Positions 6,458 to 11,769 of a stretch of 64,000 bases of DNA are shown piece after piece. The DNA is from Candidatus Omnitrophota bacterium. Lineage in GTDB: Bacteria > Omnitrophota > Gorgyraeia > Gygaellales > Profunditerraquicolaceae. A program made the translations under genes and the position numbers. Location of the stretch: positions 417 through 64,416 of the forward strand of contig JAKPTF010000097.1 of the NCBI GenBank assembly GCA_029571225.1. Reading direction: 5' to 3'. The first letter of the stretch is position 1; the number at the start of each line of letters is the position of its first letter. Under the pieces are notes generated by a model. That model had not been told where the DNA came from, did not search any database, and worked only from the letters and a program-made list of their open reading frames with translations.

Positions 6458-6658
6458 ATGGTTAAGGGAAAAGTAAAGTGGTTCTCGAACGAAAAAGGCT
6501 ACGGTTTTATTACTCCTGAAAACGGTAATGATGTCTTCGTGCATCATAGCGTGATTCAGGGTGAGGGATATAAGACGCTTGCCGAAGGACAGGAAGTTGA
6601 ACTGGAAATAGTTCAGGGTCCGAAGGGCGAACAGGCCTCGAAAGTCGTAAAGCTCTAA
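6458..6658 (+). CDS. cspA: Cold-shock protein (CspA family)
   Basis: 66 aa. RNP1 KGYGFI and RNP2 VFVHHS motifs with a full CSD layout. Confidence 0.95.
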
Positions 6659-6676: not shown

Positions 6677-6709
6677 GGCCCGGCATAGTAATATGCCGGG
6701 CCTTTTTTT
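6677..6709 (+). terminator. Intrinsic terminator of csp
   Basis: Perfect 11-bp stem ggcccggcata/tatgccgggcc, loop gtaa, then T7. Confidence 0.9.
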
Positions 6710-6720
6710 ATGTTTACGGT

Positions 6721-6749
6721 TGATAAAACGAGTGGATAGGTGTAAAATA
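6721..6749 (+). promoter_or_regulatory. Putative promoter of the ktrB operon
   Basis: TTGATA (6721-6726), 17-nt spacer, TAAAAT (6744-6749). Confidence 0.5.
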
Positions 6750-6788
6750 ATAAAAATTATGTCAATACGGGAAAGGTGTTCGTGCTGA

Positions 6789-8483
6789 ATGCTTAATTTT
6801 ATAAAGCGTAAATACGATTATTTCATAGGGTTTACCGCGCTTGTGGCGTTTGCGCTTCTGCTCATCGAGAATTCGGCGTATGTCAGGCCGTACGCGTTCC
6901 TGATAGGAGAGATCAACCTTACGGTAACCCTTATTTTCGTCAGCGACATCCTTCTTCGTTTCTTCGCCGCCCGCGATAAGAAAACGCACCTTTCCCGCAA
7001 CTGGTTGGATCTGATTGTTTTTATTCCGTTCATCCAGCTCATCAGGGGTCTGGAGAATACCGCCGCATTTGTCATCATACGCCAGATTGTCATCATCTTG
7101 ATTCTTTTGTCCCGGATACGCAAATCTACCAGGCTGCTCAATCTGCTCAGCCTCAAACCGGCGCAGATGATGATTGCGACTTTCGCTTTCGCCATCGGCG
7201 TAGGCGCCGTGCTTTTGATGCTGCCTGTCGCTACGAGGACGGGCGTCAGGACATCGTTGACCGACGCGCTGTTCACCGCGACTTCGGCCACGTGCGTCAC
7301 CGGTTTGACCGTTAAGGATACTGCCGTGCATTTCAGCCTGTTCGGCCAGATCGTGATACTTGCACTCATACAGGTCGGGGGTCTGGGTATTATGACGTTT
7401 TCGGTATCCATGGCCCTGATCATGGGCAAGAACATGGACATGAAGCAGCAGGTGGTTATGTCGGATATCCTCGATGAAAGCTCGCTTGCCCGGGTCAAGC
7501 ACATGGTGACGTATATCCTGAAAATGACGCTTTTTTGCGAGGCAGCCGGAGCAGCGTTATTGTTCGCATCGTGGATCGGCAGGACCGGAGGAGTGGTGAA
7601 GACGGCGTATTATTCCGTGTTTCACGCGGTATCAGCATTCTGCAACGCCGGGTTCTCAACTTTCAGCAACAATCTGGTCAGGTTTCATGACGATGTATCC
7701 ACGAATCTTGTCATTTGCGCGCTTATCGTCGTAGGCGGGCTCGGTTTCACGGTTATAAAGGATCTCCACGATAATCTGAATATACGGTTCGATTTTTCGA
7801 TAAGGCGCAAGGTCAAGCTGAAAATGCATACGAAGGTGGCCGTTTTGATGTCCGCAGCTCTCATTATTCTGGGCGCGGCCGCATTCTATCTCCTCGAAAA
7901 GGACGCGCTTTTCGCCGGATACGATCTCAAAGGCCGCGTGTTGTCGTCCCTGTTCCAGTCGGTAACCGCCAGGACAGCGGGGTTCAATACGTGCAGTATA
8001 GCCGGTCTCTCCGGCACATCCTTGCTTGTTATGATGATACTGATGTTTATCGGCGGCTCTCCCGGTTCAACCGCAGGCGGCGTCAAGACGACGACGGTGT
8101 CCGTGCTGTTATCCACGATCATCAGCGAATTTCAGGGTAAGGATAATACCGAGATATTCAGGCGGACGATCTCTCCTGCCCTCATAAAAAAAGCGATGAT
8201 TATCTTTTCGGTGTCCAGCATCCTCGTCGTGGCGTTTGCCGCTGGTTTACTCATGGTGGAGCACAAACAATTCCTGCCTGTTGTTTTTGAATCGGTGAGC
8301 GCCTTCGGCACGGTCGGCCTGTCCGCTGACCTGACCCAGGCGTTGAGCGGCAGAGGCAAGCTTTTGATCACAGTGCTCATGTTCATCGGCAGGCTGGGCC
8401 CGTTGACCGTCGGTTACGCGTTCCTGCGGCGCCACCGCCAGCCGCGGTACGAATACGCCCGGGAGAACCTTGCCATCGGATAA
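6789..8483 (+). CDS. ktrB: KtrB/TrkH-family K+ transporter with an N-terminal ~115-aa four-helix voltage-sensor-like extension
   Basis: The core carries the TrkH/KtrB signature (LFTATSATCVTGL, AFCNAGFS, TARTAGFN, SAFGTVGLS selectivity-filter-like repeats). The N-terminus resembles S1-S4 of the ion_trans family (IFVSDILLRFFAARDKK, NWLDLIVFIPF, IIRQIVIILILLSRIRKSTRLL). Confidence 0.85.
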   Translation: MLNFIKRKYDYFIGFTALVAFALLLIENSAYVRPYAFLIGEINLTVTLIFVSDILLRFFAARDKKTHLSRNWLDLIVFIPFIQLIRGLENTAAFVIIRQIVIILILLSRIRKSTRLLNLLSLKPAQMMIATFAFAIGVGAVLLMLPVATRTGVRTSLTDALFTATSATCVTGLTVKDTAVHFSLFGQIVILALIQVGGLGIMTFSVSMALIMGKNMDMKQQVVMSDILDESSLARVKHMVTYILKMTLFCEAAGAALLFASWIGRTGGVVKTAYYSVFHAVSAFCNAGFSTFSNNLVRFHDDVSTNLVICALIVVGGLGFTVIKDLHDNLNIRFDFSIRRKVKLKMHTKVAVLMSAALIILGAAAFYLLEKDALFAGYDLKGRVLSSLFQSVTARTAGFNTCSIAGLSGTSLLVMMILMFIGGSPGSTAGGVKTTTVSVLLSTIISEFQGKDNTEIFRRTISPALIKKAMIIFSVSSILVVAFAAGLLMVEHKQFLPVVFESVSAFGTVGLSADLTQALSGRGKLLITVLMFIGRLGPLTVGYAFLRRHRQPRYEYARENLAIG

Positions 8484-8504: not shown

Positions 8505-9194
8505 ATGCGTCAAGTAGCGGTTATCGGTCTGGGGAAGTTCGGCAGTACCGTCGCGAAGGAGCTGACGGAACGCGGCGCGCATGTGATCGCGGTGGATGAA
8601 AATGCCCAGCGTGTGGAAGAGGTTAAGGAATCCGTGACGTACGCGGTTACGGTGAATTCCGTTGACGAGAACGCCCTGCGGGCAGTCGGCATCCAGAACG
8701 TGGATATTGCTGTGGTTTGCATCGGGGAGGACGTGGAGGCGAATCTGCTGACCACGCTCCTCTTGAAAAAAATAGGCGTCAAGAAGATATGGGCGCGCGC
8801 GATAAGCCCGCTGCAGCAGGAGATCCTCAAGACGATCAAGGTCGATAACATCATCAATCTTGAGGAAGAGATGGGGGATCTGGTCGCCAATAGCCTGATC
8901 TCGCGAAGCATTTCGAAATGCATACCGCTAACGCCGGGCCACAGCATCGCCGAGGTGCCGGTTCCCCGGGCGCTTGTGGGCAGGAACATCAGGTCATTGA
9001 GGCTTCGGGAAAGTTACCGAATCAATGTGGTTGCGGTCAAAAAGAAGAAGCCCAGGATCAATGAGCATGGGGAGCGTATTTTCGAGGAATACATGGAGCA
9101 TGTACCTGAGCCCGGAGCTCCGCTAGAGGAAACAGACGTGTTGATGATAATAGGAAGCGACGCGGATATCGAACGGTTCTCGAACATCTCGTGA
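8505..9194 (+). CDS. ktrA: KtrA/TrkA K+ uptake regulatory subunit (RCK: TrkA-N + TrkA-C)
   Basis: VAVIGLGKFGSTVAKEL Rossmann GxGxxG motif and a C-terminal TrkA-C-like region. It lies directly after ktrB (21-nt gap). Confidence 0.85.
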   Translation: MRQVAVIGLGKFGSTVAKELTERGAHVIAVDENAQRVEEVKESVTYAVTVNSVDENALRAVGIQNVDIAVVCIGEDVEANLLTTLLLKKIGVKKIWARAISPLQQEILKTIKVDNIINLEEEMGDLVANSLISRSISKCIPLTPGHSIAEVPVPRALVGRNIRSLRLRESYRINVVAVKKKKPRINEHGERIFEEYMEHVPEPGAPLEETDVLMIIGSDADIERFSNIS

Positions 9195-9206: not shown

Positions 9207-9902
9207 ATGACCAGGCATACGATAAAGCTCTTATGGCTCTTTGCCGTGCTGTCGTGCGTTGCCGGATATCAGGCGGCGCTGGCCAGGGTCCCCATGCCGG
9301 GCGCCGTTGCTTATCTTTACGGCGTTTTCTTCGCGGCGGGCCTGCTGGCATGGCTGCATTTGACCCTGCGCATATTCACGTTCGGCAGGGACCTGGCGCG
9401 GTTCGCGCGGCGCGTGATCTCCAACGAATACGAAACCGGCGTCAAGGTATCACGGTTGTTTGACGATGAGGTTTCCGTCTTATCACGGCGTATCAACAAA
9501 ATGGCTGAGCAACTGGCTGCGTATGACGGACTGCAACGGGAACGGATATCGGTGGTATCCCGCGCGCTGGACGTCGTATGCCATTCGGTCAAGGATAATA
9601 TCATCATATTCGATATCAAACAGAACGAATTCCGGTTCAATCCCCCTGCCCAGGAGGCATTTGCGGTAGAACAGGAGTCATTCGGGTATAATGCCGTTGC
9701 GATGCGGGCAAACAATGCAGAATTCATCGGGCTTCTGCGGGCTGCGGTCGAAAAGGGCTCTTTCGCCACGAATGCGAGCGTGGACCTGGAGCTTCCCGTC
9801 AGGCAGACCCGCCGCAAGCTTGTTGTGAATATTACGCCGGTCAAAGATAAACATGAGACAGTGGAGTTGTGCCTGATCTTTTTCAAGAGCGCCGGCGCAT
9901 GA
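9207..9902 (+). CDS. Membrane protein with 2 TM helices, a HAMP-like linker and a PAS-like C-terminal domain; no output domain
   Basis: Two hydrophobic helices, then DLARFARRVISNEYETGVKV...DEVSVLSRRINKMAEQL (HAMP pattern), then ~110 aa with a PAS-like pattern (NIIIFD...FRFNPPAQEAF). 12-nt gap after ktrA. Confidence 0.55.
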   Translation: MTRHTIKLLWLFAVLSCVAGYQAALARVPMPGAVAYLYGVFFAAGLLAWLHLTLRIFTFGRDLARFARRVISNEYETGVKVSRLFDDEVSVLSRRINKMAEQLAAYDGLQRERISVVSRALDVVCHSVKDNIIIFDIKQNEFRFNPPAQEAFAVEQESFGYNAVAMRANNAEFIGLLRAAVEKGSFATNASVDLELPVRQTRRKLVVNITPVKDKHETVELCLIFFKSAGA

Positions 9903-10549
9903 GACAAGCTATTTTCGCCGCGTTTTTCTGTCTGGCAATGCCCGCGGCTGCGTGTTGTCATCAGCCGCGTATCTCGTTCGGGCAGAGGCATCCGTTCCTT
10001 CGCCCGGTGGTTATCCGCCAGCCGGAGGTCTCCAGGGCGTATTACGGTATCCTTGAGGGCGAGCCCGATTATTACAGGATAGACAGCGGTTCACCTTACC
10101 AGCTGTACCTGAATATACTTGTTCCTGACCGCAAAGACTCTGTCCTTGACGTTAAAGTAGACGTCGTGACCGGGAATCTGACGCTTCTTTCGCTCAAAGG
10201 CGCTGGGTTCGGGTGGACGCGTTTTTTCGAGCCCTTTGCCCGTGACCGTTATCTCAAAGGCCCTGAGCTTGACTGGCGGCTCAGGCAGGGGACATATTTT
10301 ATCAAAGTTTCCAACAGGGGGAACAGGGGAAGGTACGTGCTGGCTGTCGGCCGCAGAGAGTCGTTCCCCGTCCATGAGGTCGCCAGAATGGCATGGACAT
10401 TGCCGGTTATTAAAAAGCACTTCTTCGGCAAACCAGGGTATTGCGCGTTTTTTTCGCCTGCGGGCTTGATCGTCCTGGGGTATATGACAGTCATCTGTGG
10501 GATTGTGTGGGGCGCTGTCATTGTGATCCGGAGGTATGCATCCAAATGA
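9899..10549 (+). CDS. Exported protein with a C-terminal membrane anchor, function unknown
   Basis: ATGA overlap with the upstream gene. Signal-like N-terminus MRQAIFAAFFCLAMPAAA and a C-terminal TM helix (GLIVLGYMTVICGIVWGAVIVI). No family recognised. Confidence 0.5.
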   Translation: MRQAIFAAFFCLAMPAAACCHQPRISFGQRHPFLRPVVIRQPEVSRAYYGILEGEPDYYRIDSGSPYQLYLNILVPDRKDSVLDVKVDVVTGNLTLLSLKGAGFGWTRFFEPFARDRYLKGPELDWRLRQGTYFIKVSNRGNRGRYVLAVGRRESFPVHEVARMAWTLPVIKKHFFGKPGYCAFFSPAGLIVLGYMTVICGIVWGAVIVIRRYASK

Positions 10550-11769
10550 AACATTCGTTTCTTGCAATACTGATGTGCATGATGAGCGCATGCTGTTTGG
10601 CCGAGGAAACCCGGTCGCAGCCGAAATACGTTATTCTGGCCTGGAGCGGTTCAGGCATGCATTTTTACTCCGAAGATTTCCAGGATGCGGCGATCCTGCC
10701 CCCGAATAATACGCTTATGTGCCAGGTGATCAAAGTCGGGGAGCCTCCGCAAATCGTGAAAAGCGGCGTCATTGTGGAATACCGCTTCAGGGACAATACT
10801 TTTTCTGCGGGCAAGGACAGCAAGCGCGATAAGACCAATTTCTGGAAGTTCGCGCGGAAATTATTCGGCGTAGATGCTGAGGTGAATAAAGGGCTGACCG
10901 GCAAAGGCCTTTCAGGCCTTATGGACGCGGCCGGGGATTATTTTATTGCCCAGGGCATACCTATTACCGAATACCGTGACGGCTCGGTTGCAGATATAGA
11001 CCGGGGCCTATGGGAACGTTATCCGTTTCAGCTGGCTGCCATCGTGGTTAAGGATGAAAAGACCGGCGTTGAACTGGCCCGAACCAGCGTCGTGGCGCCC
11101 GTATCGAGCGAGGTCAATTGCATGCAATGCCACGGGGATGCTGGGGCTGCGACGAAGAAACACGGCATAAAACCGACAGGAAAATATCAGACGAATATCC
11201 TTTCGCTGCACGATAAGCTGAACCCTGATAAGTATCCGGCGCCTTTGATGCACAGCAGGCCGGTATTATGCGCATCCTGCCATGCATCGAACGCGCTCGG
11301 CGCCATGGGCCGCCAGGGCATACCCAGCCTGTCGAACGCCATACACAGAAGGCATCAGGACCTGCCGGAGATGACCCCCGACACAAACGGCTGTTACAAC
11401 TGCCATCCTGGCCCGCGGACGCAATTCCTGCGGGATACGATGTCGGTGAATTATAAACTCAATTGCACGACGTGCCATGGCACGATGTCAACGGTTGCAA
11501 GGAACCTGGAACCGTGGAAGGTGGAGCCGCGATGCGATAACGGCTCATGCCACGGCCAGGGATACGCCCTTGATAAGCCGTTATTCAACCAGTCAAAGTC
11601 TAAAACCGGGATATATTGCGCCGCCTGTCACGACAGCGCGCATGCGATCGCGCCCAGCAGGCAGGAAAGCGATCAAATCAAATTCAAGGACCTTCAGAGT
11701 AGCCCGGGCACTCTGCGCAGCTGCGCTGTCTGCCACGGCAGGGATGTGCAGAAACCCTTCAAACATTGA
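10546..11769 (+). CDS. Periplasmic multihaem c-type cytochrome
   Basis: ATGA overlap with the upstream gene. Signal peptide MKHSFLAILMCMMSACCLA. Six CxxCH motifs (CMQCH, CASCH, CYNCH, CTTCH, CAACH, CAVCH) plus one CDNGSCH lie between 11119 and 11736. The first ~190 aa carry no haem motif. Confidence 0.8.
   Translation: MKHSFLAILMCMMSACCLAEETRSQPKYVILAWSGSGMHFYSEDFQDAAILPPNNTLMCQVIKVGEPPQIVKSGVIVEYRFRDNTFSAGKDSKRDKTNFWKFARKLFGVDAEVNKGLTGKGLSGLMDAAGDYFIAQGIPITEYRDGSVADIDRGLWERYPFQLAAIVVKDEKTGVELARTSVVAPVSSEVNCMQCHGDAGAATKKHGIKPTGKYQTNILSLHDKLNPDKYPAPLMHSRPVLCASCHASNALGAMGRQGIPSLSNAIHRRHQDLPEMTPDTNGCYNCHPGPRTQFLRDTMSVNYKLNCTTCHGTMSTVARNLEPWKVEPRCDNGSCHGQGYALDKPLFNQSKSKTGIYCAACHDSAHAIAPSRQESDQIKFKDLQSSPGTLRSCAVCHGRDVQKPFKH

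What the first reader, a model, noticed from the sequence alone, without database searches (positions are those of the whole stretch)
6789..7150. Voltage-sensor-like four-helix module fused to the N-terminus of KtrB
Seen in sequence: the first ~115 aa, ahead of the first KtrB pore repeat, form four hydrophobic segments whose patterns match S1-S4 of the ion_trans family. These are YFIGFTALVAFALLLIE; LTVTLIFVSDILLRFFAARDKK; SRNWLDLIVFIPF; and FVIIRQIVIILILLSRIRKSTRLLNLL. The S4-like helix keeps only a few of the usual every-third-residue basic residues. Established knowledge: KtrB/TrkH proteins are built from four M-P-M repeats, and TrkH adds an unrelated two-helix D0. To my knowledge, VSD modules are known on channels, phosphatases and Hv1, not on Ktr/Trk transporters. 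Inference: this is a degenerate VSD that may gate or anchor the transporter.
Basis: partly seen in the sequence, partly recalled or inferred. Interest (0 to 1): 0.55.

Follow-up and report, generated by a model that had tools for sequence, protein, structure and literature searches.

The report
Charge-poor voltage-sensor domain fused to KtrB
A bacterial potassium-uptake channel subunit (KtrB) carries at its front end a true relative of the voltage-sensor domain of nerve-type ion channels, stripped of most of its charges; this fusion is conserved across several phyla, always sits in a three-gene cassette, and I found no paper describing it.

Summary
ORF 6789..8483 (+, 564 aa) from a Candidatus Omnitrophota MAG is a KtrB. 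Residues ~116-550 match B. subtilis KtrB (38% identity, TM-score 0.93). Residues ~9-112 are homologous to the S1-S4 voltage-sensor domain (VSD) of 6TM channels:
- Pfam Ion_trans hits 39 of 46 family N-termini.
- A family profile finds NaChBac at 2e-6.
- hhalign against prokaryotic 6TM K+ channels gives 99.4% probability, E 2e-21.
- The AlphaFold model's top 50 PDB matches are all S1-S4 domains of 6TM cation channels.

The S2 Phe/Asp/Arg and S3 Trp-x-Asp signature is kept. The S4 core is not: one basic residue (R98, at the R2 position) in 102 of 135 fusions, and none in 27. The basic run R109/R111/K112/R115 coincides with KtrB's own N-terminal polybasic activation segment.

The fusion is a conserved family (more than 120 clusters; Omnitrophota, PVC phyla, Elusimicrobiota, Margulisiibacteriota). 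In every locus long enough to judge it is followed by ktrA and a kinase-less 2TM-HAMP-PAS gene.

The most likely role is a membrane-embedded regulatory or anchoring module acting on the S4-M1 linker. Strong voltage sensing is unlikely. No paper on this fusion was found. I rate it a new variant of a known kind.

The parts
6720..6748 (+). Promoter-like site (TTGATA-17-TAAAAT) upstream of the cassette. It lies just after the cspA terminator at 6677-6702.
   Evidence: 10 of 12 consensus matches. This is a consensus match only.
6770..6776 (+). Ribosome-binding-site-like GGAAAGG, 12 nt before the ATG at 6789.
   Evidence: Read directly from the sequence.
6789..8483 (+). Whole ORF, 564 aa: the VSD-KtrB fusion protein. 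NCBI record HQJ15013.1 names it 'TrkH family potassium uptake protein'.
6792..6869 (+). S1 helix (aa 2-27). It carries the conserved outer Glu E27 (93% of 116 aligned sequences).
   Evidence: AF2 helices; conservation. E27 aligns with the S1 Glu of the channel consensus.
6876..6968 (+). S2 helix (aa 30-60). It carries N43, F50, D53 and R57, the charge-transfer-centre pattern N/D-x6-F-x2-D/E-x3-R.
   Evidence: In one search these align residue for residue with the D, F, E and R of NaChBac and NavRh S2.
7002..7046 (+). S3 helix (aa 72-86). It carries the W72-x-D74 motif and P80.
   Evidence: 'NWLDL' aligns with NaChBac 'NWFDF'.
7062..7124 (+). S4 helix (aa 92-112). R98 sits at the R2 position. 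Q99 is nearly invariant. The R1, R3 and R4 positions (95, 101, 104) are hydrophobic. S108 and R109 lie at the inner end.
7125..7157 (+). S4-M1 linker (aa 113-123), a short basic amphipathic helix ending in the invariant L-K-P-A-Q. It corresponds to the N-terminal juxtamembrane segment of ordinary KtrB.
   Evidence: pLDDT here is about 52 in the full-length model.
7158..8480 (+). KtrB core (aa 124-564). It has four M-P-M repeats with invariant filter glycines G172, G288, G398 and G510. It also has the intramembrane gate loop GGSPGSTAGGVKTTT (aa 422-436), R535 in D4M2, and a C-terminal Gly564.
8505..9194 (+). ktrA: RCK subunit of 229 aa (TrkA_N + TrkA_C), 21 nt after the VSD-ktrB stop.
   Evidence: It lies directly downstream of the fusion gene in every related locus that extends that far.
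9207..9902 (+). Third cassette gene, 231 aa: two TM helices, a HAMP-like linker and a PAS-like domain, with no kinase or other output domain. NCBI annotates it as a hypothetical protein.

Best explanation
The gene encodes a complete KtrB K+ pore subunit whose N-terminus has been replaced by a voltage-sensor-domain homologue, S1-S4. That domain most closely resembles the sensors of prokaryotic 6TM K+ channels.

Shown:
- The homology itself.
- The fold prediction.
- Retention of the S1 Glu, the S2 Asn/Phe/Asp/Arg pattern and the S3 Trp-x-Asp.
- Loss of all S4 gating-charge positions except the R2 equivalent (R98).
- A seamless join: the inner end of S4 runs into KtrB's own polybasic juxtamembrane segment and then into D1M1.
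- Conservation of a three-gene cassette: VSD-ktrB, ktrA and a 2TM-HAMP-PAS gene.

Inferred mechanism:
- The S1-S4 bundle is a peripheral, membrane-embedded regulatory and anchoring module.
- It works as an S4-S5-linker-like lever. It holds the polybasic N-terminal activation segment of KtrB at the inner membrane surface. In Vibrio KtrAB that segment must bind the membrane for ATP-dependent opening (PMC12059179).
- The bundle thereby biases gating of the intramembrane loop, which the KtrA ring controls.
- Its input is more likely a membrane-delimited signal than a large gating-charge movement. Candidates are contact with the TM hairpin of the co-encoded HAMP-PAS protein, or lipids.
- At most about one charge per subunit (R98) could respond to voltage.
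For: VSD homology:
- Pfam Ion_trans hits.
- PDB sequence profile hits to NaChBac, NavRh and KvAP.
- 354 hits at E<=1e-3 in the 1.84-billion-protein library. Of the top 150, 33 are TrkH fusions or fragments of them. Of the other 117, those 200 aa or longer have an Arg-rich S4 on inspection, and 10 of 10 sampled are Ion_trans channels by Pfam; the shorter ones were not checked.
- hhalign 99.4% probability, E 2e-21.
- AF2 N-terminal model: pLDDT 80, four long helices. Foldseek top 50 are all S1-S4 domains of 6TM channels (Kv, Nav, KCNQ, TRPV, CatSper), TMq up to 0.69.

KtrB identity:
-.
- All gate and filter residues are invariant.

S4 depletion:
-.

The join:
- B. subtilis KtrB residue 8 aligns to query residue 116.
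- The basic tail at aa 108-116 carries 4 Arg/Lys in 96 of 135 members.
- The role of this cluster in V. alginolyticus KtrB is from PMC12059179.

Purifying selection on the module:
- Median 44% identity for aa 9-120 against 53% for the KtrB core, across 115 homologues.

Synteny:
- The fusion gene, ktrA and the third gene lie in that order in all 11 loci reached through the fusion protein that extend far enough downstream (L001-L011; L001/L002 and L003/L004 each carry the same fusion protein, found on two contigs).
- In 6 of 6 loci found starting from the third gene, ktrA lies directly upstream. All 3 of those with enough upstream sequence have the fusion gene; some may repeat earlier loci.
- The third protein matches the HAMP-PAS part of the sensor kinases AtoS, NblS and PnpS in 9 of 10 members, best 2e-8, and Pfam PAS in 5 of 10.
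Against: - No functional data exist.
- In the full-length model, pLDDT for S4 and the linker is only 52-69.
- The countercharges of a working charge-transfer centre (E27, N43, F50, D53, R57, D74) are kept at 55-98% (R57 at 55%, the rest at 81-98%). This would fit a sensor that still moves.
- Co-occurrence with the HAMP-PAS gene shows linkage, not physical contact with the S1-S4 bundle.
- The covariation analysis was too noisy to support any contact.
Confidence: 0.45

Rival explanations
1. The module is a working, low-valence voltage sensor. R98 moves between the outer site (E27/N43) and the inner site (D53/D74) across F50. This pulls the S4-M1 linker, so that K+ uptake through KtrAB opens only at suitable membrane potentials. 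The system would follow BK-channel logic (VSD + K+ pore + RCK ring) on a Ktr scaffold.
For: - The full set of charge-transfer-centre residues is conserved: E27 93%, N43 98%, F50 95%, D53 81%, D74 85%.
- They sit in register with the NaChBac and NavRh residues.
- R98 lies exactly at the R2 position and is kept in 78% of the 116 aligned sequences.
- When R98 is lost, position 83 at the top of S3 becomes Arg or Lys in 8 of the 28 fusions lacking Arg98, and in none of those that keep it.
- The nearest non-fusion relatives are voltage-gated-type 6TM K+ channels, some with RCK domains.
- There is a weak NCBIfam hit to a hyperpolarisation-activated K+ channel family, E 0.011.
- From general biophysics, one charge gives an e-fold change per ~25 mV, which is physiologically useful.
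Against: - 27 of 135 fusions have no basic residue in the S4 core (W, S, C or T at position 98), yet keep everything else.
- No member has a periodic multi-Arg S4.
- There is one sensor per four-repeat pore, not four.
- The C-terminal basic residues belong to the KtrB juxtamembrane segment.
Confidence: 0.2
2. The module is an inert structural domain. It would be a peripheral TM bundle that aids folding, membrane insertion, dimer packing or stability, in the way TrkH's extra D0 helices are usually viewed, with no signalling role.
For: - S4 occupies the same position as TrkH D0 helix 2, the TM helix just before D1M1. In hhalign, query residue 100 onwards aligns with E. coli TrkH residue 47 onwards.
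- S4 is charge-depleted.
- Charge-poor S1-S4 domains occur in many channels that are not voltage-gated (general knowledge).
- The TOK1 precedent shows that N-terminal four-helix add-ons to tandem-pore K+ channels need not be sensors (PMC13323377).
Against: - Buried polar and charged residues typical of a functional VSD interior are strongly conserved. A mere scaffold would not be expected to need them.
- The linker motif L-K-P-A-Q is invariant.
- The fusion is strictly linked to a dedicated sensor-type gene.
- The VSD shows no homology to D0: hhalign probability 0.3%.
Confidence: 0.25
3. The extension is an artefact: either the true start codon lies downstream near residue 115-128, or two genes were joined by mis-assembly.
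For: - Two in-frame Met codons lie at aa 127-128.
- A weak promoter-like match lies inside the S4 coding region, 7069-7096, 9 of 12 matches.
Against: - The same full-length architecture appears in more than 120 clusters from independent assemblies and several phyla, with 98-100% query coverage in most.
- The N-terminal domain is under protein-level conservation.
- The reading frame is uninterrupted.
- The terminator, promoter-like site and ribosome-binding site lie just upstream of 6789.
- No Shine-Dalgarno-like sequence precedes M127.
- An M127 start would remove KtrB's N-terminal segment altogether.
Confidence: 0.01

Closest known systems
KtrAB K+ uptake channel (B. subtilis and V. alginolyticus KtrB/KtrA)
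   Same: - aa 116-550 align with B. subtilis KtrB at E 2e-81; Foldseek gives 38% identity, TMt 0.93.
- Four M-P-M repeats with filter glycines, the intramembrane gate loop, the D4M2 Arg and the C-terminal Gly are all present.
- An adjacent KtrA of 229 aa carries TrkA_N and TrkA_C.
- A polybasic segment precedes D1M1.
   Different: - Ordinary KtrB starts with a short disordered cytoplasmic N-terminus. Here that segment is covalently continued upstream into a four-helix VSD homologue.
- The cassette carries an extra 2TM-HAMP-PAS gene.
Voltage-sensor domains of prokaryotic 6TM channels (NaChBac, NavAb, NavRh, KvAP; metagenomic 6TM K+ channels, some with RCK domains)
   Same: - Sequence and profile homology over S1-S4.
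- The same S2 N/D-x6-F-x2-D/E-x3-R pattern and the same S3 W-x-D motif.
- The same N-in topology.
- A similar predicted fold.
   Different: - The S4 core has 0-1 basic residues instead of 4 or more.
- The domain is attached to a four-repeat SKT-type pore, one sensor per pore, rather than to a single S5-P-S6 unit that tetramerises.
BK/Slo1 and prokaryotic 6TM-RCK K+ channels (working logic only)
   Same: An S1-S4 sensor domain, a K+ pore and a cytoplasmic RCK ring occur in one machine. Two of the nearest non-fusion relatives of the N-terminal domain (P0230, P0252) are such 6TM-RCK channels.
   Different: - The pore comes from a different family (KtrB/SKT, with an intramembrane-loop gate).
- The RCK ring is a separate subunit.
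- The sensor is charge-depleted.
TrkH D0 (the two extra N-terminal TM helices)
   Same: Extra TM helices sit ahead of D1M1 in an SKT protein. S4 is positionally equivalent to D0 helix 2.
   Different: - No detectable homology: hhalign probability 0.3%, E 0.19 over 16 columns.
- Two helices rather than four.
Fungal TOK1 (8TM/2P K+ channel with an N-terminal S1-S4)
   Same: Four N-terminal TM helices lacking S4 arginines precede covalently concatenated K+ pore repeats.
   Different: TOK1's S1-S4 proved to be a tetraspanin-like 'TALC' domain, not a VSD fold (PMC13323377). Here there is direct sequence homology to VSDs, which TOK1 lacks.
VSDs on non-channel effectors (Ci-VSP phosphatase) and the Hv1 proton channel. 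From general knowledge.
   Same: They illustrate that the VSD is a portable module that can be joined to different effectors.
   Different: Those sensors keep several S4 arginines and are proven voltage sensors. The effector here is an SKT transporter or channel, and voltage sensing is unproven.

Membership tests
KtrB / SKT superfamily (Pfam TrkH PF02386) | Profile match above the curated threshold | tested here: met
   Pfam TrkH: 212 bits against a cutoff of 27. TIGR00933: 336.9 bits against a cutoff of 331.15.
KtrB / SKT superfamily (Pfam TrkH PF02386) | Four M-P-M repeats, each with a selectivity-filter glycine | tested here: met
   G172, G288, G398 and G510 are invariant across the 78 aligned sequences (the query plus 77 homologues). 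The fold matches KtrB at TMt 0.93.
KtrB / SKT superfamily (Pfam TrkH PF02386) | Intramembrane gate loop in D3M2, the conserved D4M2 arginine and the C-terminal glycine | tested here: met
   GGSPGSTAGGVKTTT at aa 422-436, with G422, T428, G430, G431 and K433 invariant. R535 is invariant. G564 is kept in 90% or more. The roles of these residues are from PMC12059179.
KtrB / SKT superfamily (Pfam TrkH PF02386) | A KtrA-type RCK partner | tested here: met
   ORF 8505-9194 has TrkA_N (3.9e-27) and TrkA_C (2.2e-9). It is syntenic in all loci that extend that far.
Voltage-sensor domain (S1-S4 of Pfam Ion_trans PF00520) | Sequence-profile homology to S1-S4 | tested here: met
   25.9 bits against a cutoff of 25 for this protein. 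39 of 46 relatives hit at E<0.01. hhalign gives 99.4% probability.
Voltage-sensor domain (S1-S4 of Pfam Ion_trans PF00520) | Four-helix antiparallel TM bundle with the VSD fold | tested here: met
Voltage-sensor domain (S1-S4 of Pfam Ion_trans PF00520) | Charge-transfer centre: S2 aromatic plus acidic residue, and S3 acidic residue | tested here: met
   F50, D53 and D74 (plus N43 and R57) are conserved, and they align to the F, E, D (and D, R) of NaChBac and NavRh.
Voltage-sensor domain (S1-S4 of Pfam Ion_trans PF00520) | S4 with a periodic series (three or more) of Arg/Lys at every third position | tested here: not met
   Only R98, at the R2 position. Positions 95, 101 and 104 are hydrophobic. 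102 of 135 fusions have one core basic residue, and 27 have none.
Voltage-sensor domain (S1-S4 of Pfam Ion_trans PF00520) | Voltage-driven S4 movement (gating charge) | not testable with these tools
   Needs electrophysiology or voltage-clamp fluorimetry.
TrkH-type D0 extension | Homology of the N-terminal extension to TrkH D0 | tested here: not met
   hhalign of the family N-terminal profile against E. coli TrkH aa 1-130: probability 0.3%, E 0.19.
HAMP-PAS sensor module (third gene, 9207-9902) | Profile match to the HAMP and PAS regions of sensor kinases, without a kinase domain | tested here: inconclusive
   - NCBIfam AtoS, NblS and PnpS match the HAMP-PAS regions in 9 of 10 members, best 2e-8. 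All scores are far below the whole-protein cutoffs, as expected for a fragment.
- Pfam PAS models hit 5 of 10 members, best 1.1e-5, but not the window copy.
- No Pfam HAMP hit.
- The PDB profile search was not significant.
- At 231 aa the protein has no room for a kinase domain.

The most novel reading that the evidence does not exclude
This is a membrane-potential-gated K+ uptake system. It would be the first case of a voltage-sensor domain coupled to a pore of the Trk/Ktr/HKT superfamily. It would integrate three inputs: voltage through a minimal one-arginine S4, nucleotides and cations through the KtrA RCK ring, and a cytoplasmic signal through a dedicated kinase-less HAMP-PAS partner. It would also offer a natural minimal system for asking how few S4 charges suffice for electromechanical coupling.
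Probability: 0.2. Interest if true: 0.85.

Novelty: new variant of a known kind. Interest (0 to 1): 0.6.

Why it matters
Voltage-sensor domains have been characterised on tetrameric cation channels, on Hv1 and on voltage-sensing phosphatases (general knowledge). Each new effector coupling has changed how the field thinks about the modularity of this domain.

Here a true VSD homologue is joined to D1 of a KtrB pore. That recreates a 6TM unit followed by three 2TM repeats, and the whole is regulated by an RCK ring.

If the module modulates gating, there are three consequences:
- It would extend VSD coupling to the SKT superfamily.
- It would bear on the newly proposed role of KtrB's N-terminus in activation.
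- It would give a natural series of S4 variants (R, W, S or C at the single charge position) for dissecting minimal voltage or lipid sensing.

The strictly linked HAMP-PAS gene points to an unrecognised third component of some Ktr systems in Omnitrophota, PVC bacteria and related uncultured phyla.

If the module is inert, the case is still a useful documented example of VSD exaptation.

Tried and rejected
1. A word-indexed homologue search with the N-terminal 140 aa alone found a single fragment. The full-length search was needed.
2. The search for related loci with the 46-sequence N-terminal alignment failed because no stretch was conserved enough. A narrower alignment found only 8 genome loci, so the taxonomic census is incomplete.
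I could not test R98/R109 salt bridges or how the bundle packs on KtrB.
5. Mutual-information covariation across 135 N-termini was noisy and gave no convincing S4 contacts. The exception was a weak 83/98 charge swap.
6. Homology between the extension and TrkH D0 was tested and rejected.
7. A downstream start codon or a mis-assembly was considered and rejected.
8. A PDB sequence-profile search for the third protein gave only non-significant HAMP and PAS hints. NCBIfam and Pfam per-member scans were more informative.
9. Six completed literature searches found no description of a VSD fused to Ktr/Trk; a seventh failed on a malformed term. The library lacks most subscription-journal papers, so absence is not proof.
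10. The long antisense ORFs over the same region (6762-7502 and 6818-7504, minus strand) were judged unlikely to be genes, because the protein-level conservation is all on the plus strand. They were not searched for homologues.
Full report
**What is there**

The finding lies at the 5' end of ORF 6789..8483 (+), 564 aa.
- Pfam places TrkH at aa 130-554 (E 1.6e-62), and TIGR00933 matches above its cutoff.
- B. subtilis KtrB aligns from its residue 8 to query residue 116, at E 2e-81.
- A full-length AlphaFold model (pLDDT 81.8, pTM 0.85) superposes on KtrB structures at TMt 0.93 and 38% identity.
- No PDB entry covers the first ~115 residues together with the pore.
- All KtrB hallmarks are invariant in 78 aligned sequences (the query plus 77 relatives). 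These are the four filter glycines, the D3M2 intramembrane loop, the D4M2 arginine and the C-terminal glycine.
- The next gene (8505..9194) is a standard KtrA with TrkA_N and TrkA_C.
- NCBI records the protein as 'TrkH family potassium uptake protein' from a Candidatus Omnitrophota MAG.

**Checking the observation**

Sequence evidence for a voltage-sensor relationship:
- aa 1-130 on their own hit Pfam Ion_trans at E 6.6e-6, just above the gathering score. The match covers profile positions 4-119, which is S1-S4.
- Among 46 homologous N-termini, 39 hit Ion_trans at E<0.01, best 4.6e-8.
- A profile of these N-termini finds NaChBac (2e-6), NavRh (1.7e-3) and KvAP (0.016) among PDB sequences.
- Against 1.84 billion representative proteins the profile gives 354 hits at E<=1e-3.
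- Of the best 150, 33 are TrkH fusions or fragments of them.
- Of the other 117, those 200 aa or longer have arginine-rich S4 segments on inspection. Ten of ten that I sampled are Ion_trans plus Ion_trans_2 K+ channels, two of them with RCK domains. The shorter ones were not checked.
- Profile-profile comparison of the fusion N-termini with those channels gives 99.4% probability, E 2.1e-21, over 108 columns. The channel set was chosen by the same profile, so this figure is partly circular. The Pfam and PDB hits are independent of it.

Structural evidence:
- An AlphaFold model of aa 1-130 (pLDDT 80) has four long helices at 2-27, 30-60, 72-86 and 92-112.
- Its 50 best Foldseek matches in the PDB are all S1-S4 domains of Kv, Nav, KCNQ, TRPV or CatSper channels.
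- TMq reaches 0.69 and probability reaches 1.0, although E-values are weak (0.045 at best).

Start codon:
- 114 of 115 full-length homologues cover the domain.
- A strong terminator, a promoter-like site and a ribosome-binding-site-like box lie immediately upstream.

The TOK1 case shows that a four-helix add-on can be wrongly called a VSD from topology alone (PMC13323377). Here the call rests on sequence homology, not on topology.

**Anatomy of the module**

- In the alignments to NaChBac and NavRh, N43, F50, D53 and R57 of S2 fall on the D, F, E and R of the bacterial sodium-channel sensors. 'NWLDL' of S3 falls on 'NWFDF'.
- These residues, together with E27 of S1, are conserved at 55-98% across 116 aligned sequences. 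R57 is the lowest at 55%; the others are at 81-98%.
- S4 is different. R98 aligns with the second arginine (R2). The R1, R3 and R4 positions (95, 101, 104) are hydrophobic.
- Over 135 fusions, the S4 core (aa 92-107) has one basic residue in 102, none in 27 (W, S, C or T at position 98) and two or three in 6. No member has a periodic arginine ladder.
- Q99, S108 and R109 are nearly invariant.
- The stretch aa 108-116 carries four basic residues in 96 of 135 members. It lies exactly where the N-terminus of ordinary KtrB aligns.
- In V. alginolyticus KtrB, the corresponding cluster (K16/R17/K19/K21) pulls a disordered N-terminus onto the membrane. Neutralising all four residues halves Vmax, and the N-terminal IDR as a whole is needed for ATP-dependent opening (PMC12059179).
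- The join is therefore seamless. The inner end of S4 is KtrB's activation segment, followed by the invariant L-K-P-A-Q and then D1M1.
- The topology is consistent. The positive-inside pattern puts the N-terminus and the S4 end in the cytoplasm, as in VSDs and as KtrB requires (sequence; hydropathy).

**How widespread it is**

- The full-length search returned at least 120 clusters at 47-92% identity. Most show 98-100% query coverage and lengths near 560 aa.
- The source names include Omnitrophota, Elusimicrobiota, Margulisiibacteriota, Planctomycetota, Kiritimatiellia, Lentisphaeria and Verrucomicrobiota.
- Three of the clusters carry precomputed PF00520+PF02386. The architecture can therefore be seen in databases, but it is annotated simply as TrkH.
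- The module is under purifying selection: median identity to the query is 44% for aa 9-120 against 53% for the pore.

**A third component**

- In all 11 loci reached through the fusion protein that extend far enough downstream (L001-L011), the fusion gene is followed by ktrA and then by a ~230 aa gene. L001/L002 and L003/L004 each carry the same fusion protein, found on two contigs. In the window this third gene is 9207..9902.
- Searching from that third gene gave six metagenome loci. All six have ktrA directly upstream. All three with enough upstream sequence have the VSD-KtrB gene. Some of these may duplicate earlier loci.
- The protein has two N-terminal TM helices.
- It matches the HAMP-PAS portion of the sensor kinases AtoS, NblS, PnpS and WalK. 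Nine of 10 members hit AtoS, NblS and PnpS (best 2e-8), and 5 of 10 hit WalK.
- Pfam PAS models hit 5 of 10 members.
- It has no kinase domain or other output domain.
- NCBI calls it hypothetical.

**Mechanism**

What is shown: the module is a VSD homologue with an intact interior but a nearly uncharged S4. It is fused through KtrB's own activation segment, in a fixed cassette with an RCK subunit and a sensor-type membrane protein.

What I infer: the bundle acts as a membrane-embedded regulatory anchor.
- It fixes the polybasic linker at the inner leaflet.
- Small rearrangements of the bundle shift that linker, much like an S4-S5 linker, and so bias the KtrA-controlled gate.
- Those rearrangements could come from the partner's TM hairpin, from lipids, or weakly from voltage acting on R98.
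- I give this 0.45.

Rivals:
- A genuine low-valence voltage sensor remains possible (0.2). The conserved charge-transfer centre favours it. So does the appearance of Arg or Lys at position 83 in 8 of the 28 fusions lacking Arg98. Against it, a fifth of the family has no S4 core charge.
- An inert structural role like that of TrkH D0 is the other serious rival (0.25). S4 is positionally equivalent to D0 helix 2. However, there is no homology to D0, and the conserved polar interior and the dedicated partner gene argue for more than scaffolding.
- An annotation or assembly artefact is excluded for practical purposes.

**Comparison with known systems, and novelty**

- The protein is a member of the KtrB/SKT family; all tested features are met.
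- Its N-terminus is a member of the VSD homology family, but it fails the defining S4 charge-ladder criterion. I therefore call it a charge-depleted VSD homologue, not a demonstrated voltage sensor.
- It resembles BK or 6TM-RCK channels in overall logic, and TOK1 in layout. It differs from each as listed under Closest known systems.
- Six completed literature searches found no description of a VSD on a Ktr or Trk protein; a seventh failed on a malformed term. The library is incomplete, so this is absence of evidence.
- I rate it a new variant of a known kind, interest 0.6. It is a real, conserved and apparently undescribed architecture with a testable link to a current question, namely how KtrB's N-terminus gates the channel. 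Its function is not established, and its S4 is too degenerate to expect classic voltage gating.

Noticed in passing
window 9207-9902 (+); also L001 6371-7105, L003 6389-7099, L005-L011, L014-L019: A conserved ~230 aa gene always lies directly after ktrA in VSD-ktrB cassettes. It has two TM helices and a HAMP-PAS-like region resembling the sensor part of the histidine kinases AtoS, NblS, PnpS and WalK, but no kinase domain. NCBI annotates it as hypothetical. It may be a third subunit or a regulator of this Ktr variant.
   Followed up: partly
window 6458-6658 (+) and 6677-6702: A cold-shock protein gene (CspA-like by inspection, 66 aa) with a strong intrinsic terminator lies directly upstream of the cassette. 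The same protein (98% identical) sits upstream of the cassette in the related Omnitrophota locus L005.
   Followed up: no
window 10441-11769 (+): A 442 aa ORF with at least six CxxCH haem-binding motifs (CMQCH, CASCH, CYNCH, CTTCH, CAACH, CAVCH in the translation). It is probably a multihaem c-type cytochrome.
   Followed up: no
window 9869-10549 (+): A 226 aa ORF overlaps the end of the third cassette gene. It has hydrophobic N- and C-terminal segments. It is not conserved downstream of the cassette in other loci: L001 has an OEP efflux gene there, and L003 has folB.
   Followed up: partly
P0165 (609 aa) and P0219 (607 aa), distant family members: These two fusions carry an insertion of roughly 15-25 residues within or after S3 of the VSD-like domain. 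Both lack Arg at the R98 position.
   Followed up: no
P0246 (363 aa) and P0153 (468 aa), non-fusion hits of the N-terminal profile: In each, Pfam reports two separate stretches matching Ion_trans, and the N-terminal profile also matches twice. P0153 additionally has two Ion_trans_2 stretches. They may be tandem-sensor or tandem-6TM channel proteins.
   Followed up: no
window 7069-7096 (+): A promoter-like match (TTGTCA-16-CATCAT with an upstream TG, 9 of 12) lies inside the S4 coding region, upstream of the in-frame Met127/Met128. No ribosome-binding site precedes those codons. This is probably chance: 7 sites were found in the region against 2.9 expected.
   Followed up: partly
window 6762-7502 (-) and 6818-7504 (-): Two long antisense ORFs (246 and 228 aa) overlap the VSD-coding region. 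I judged them unlikely to be genes, because the protein-level conservation is on the plus strand. They were not searched for homologues.
   Followed up: no
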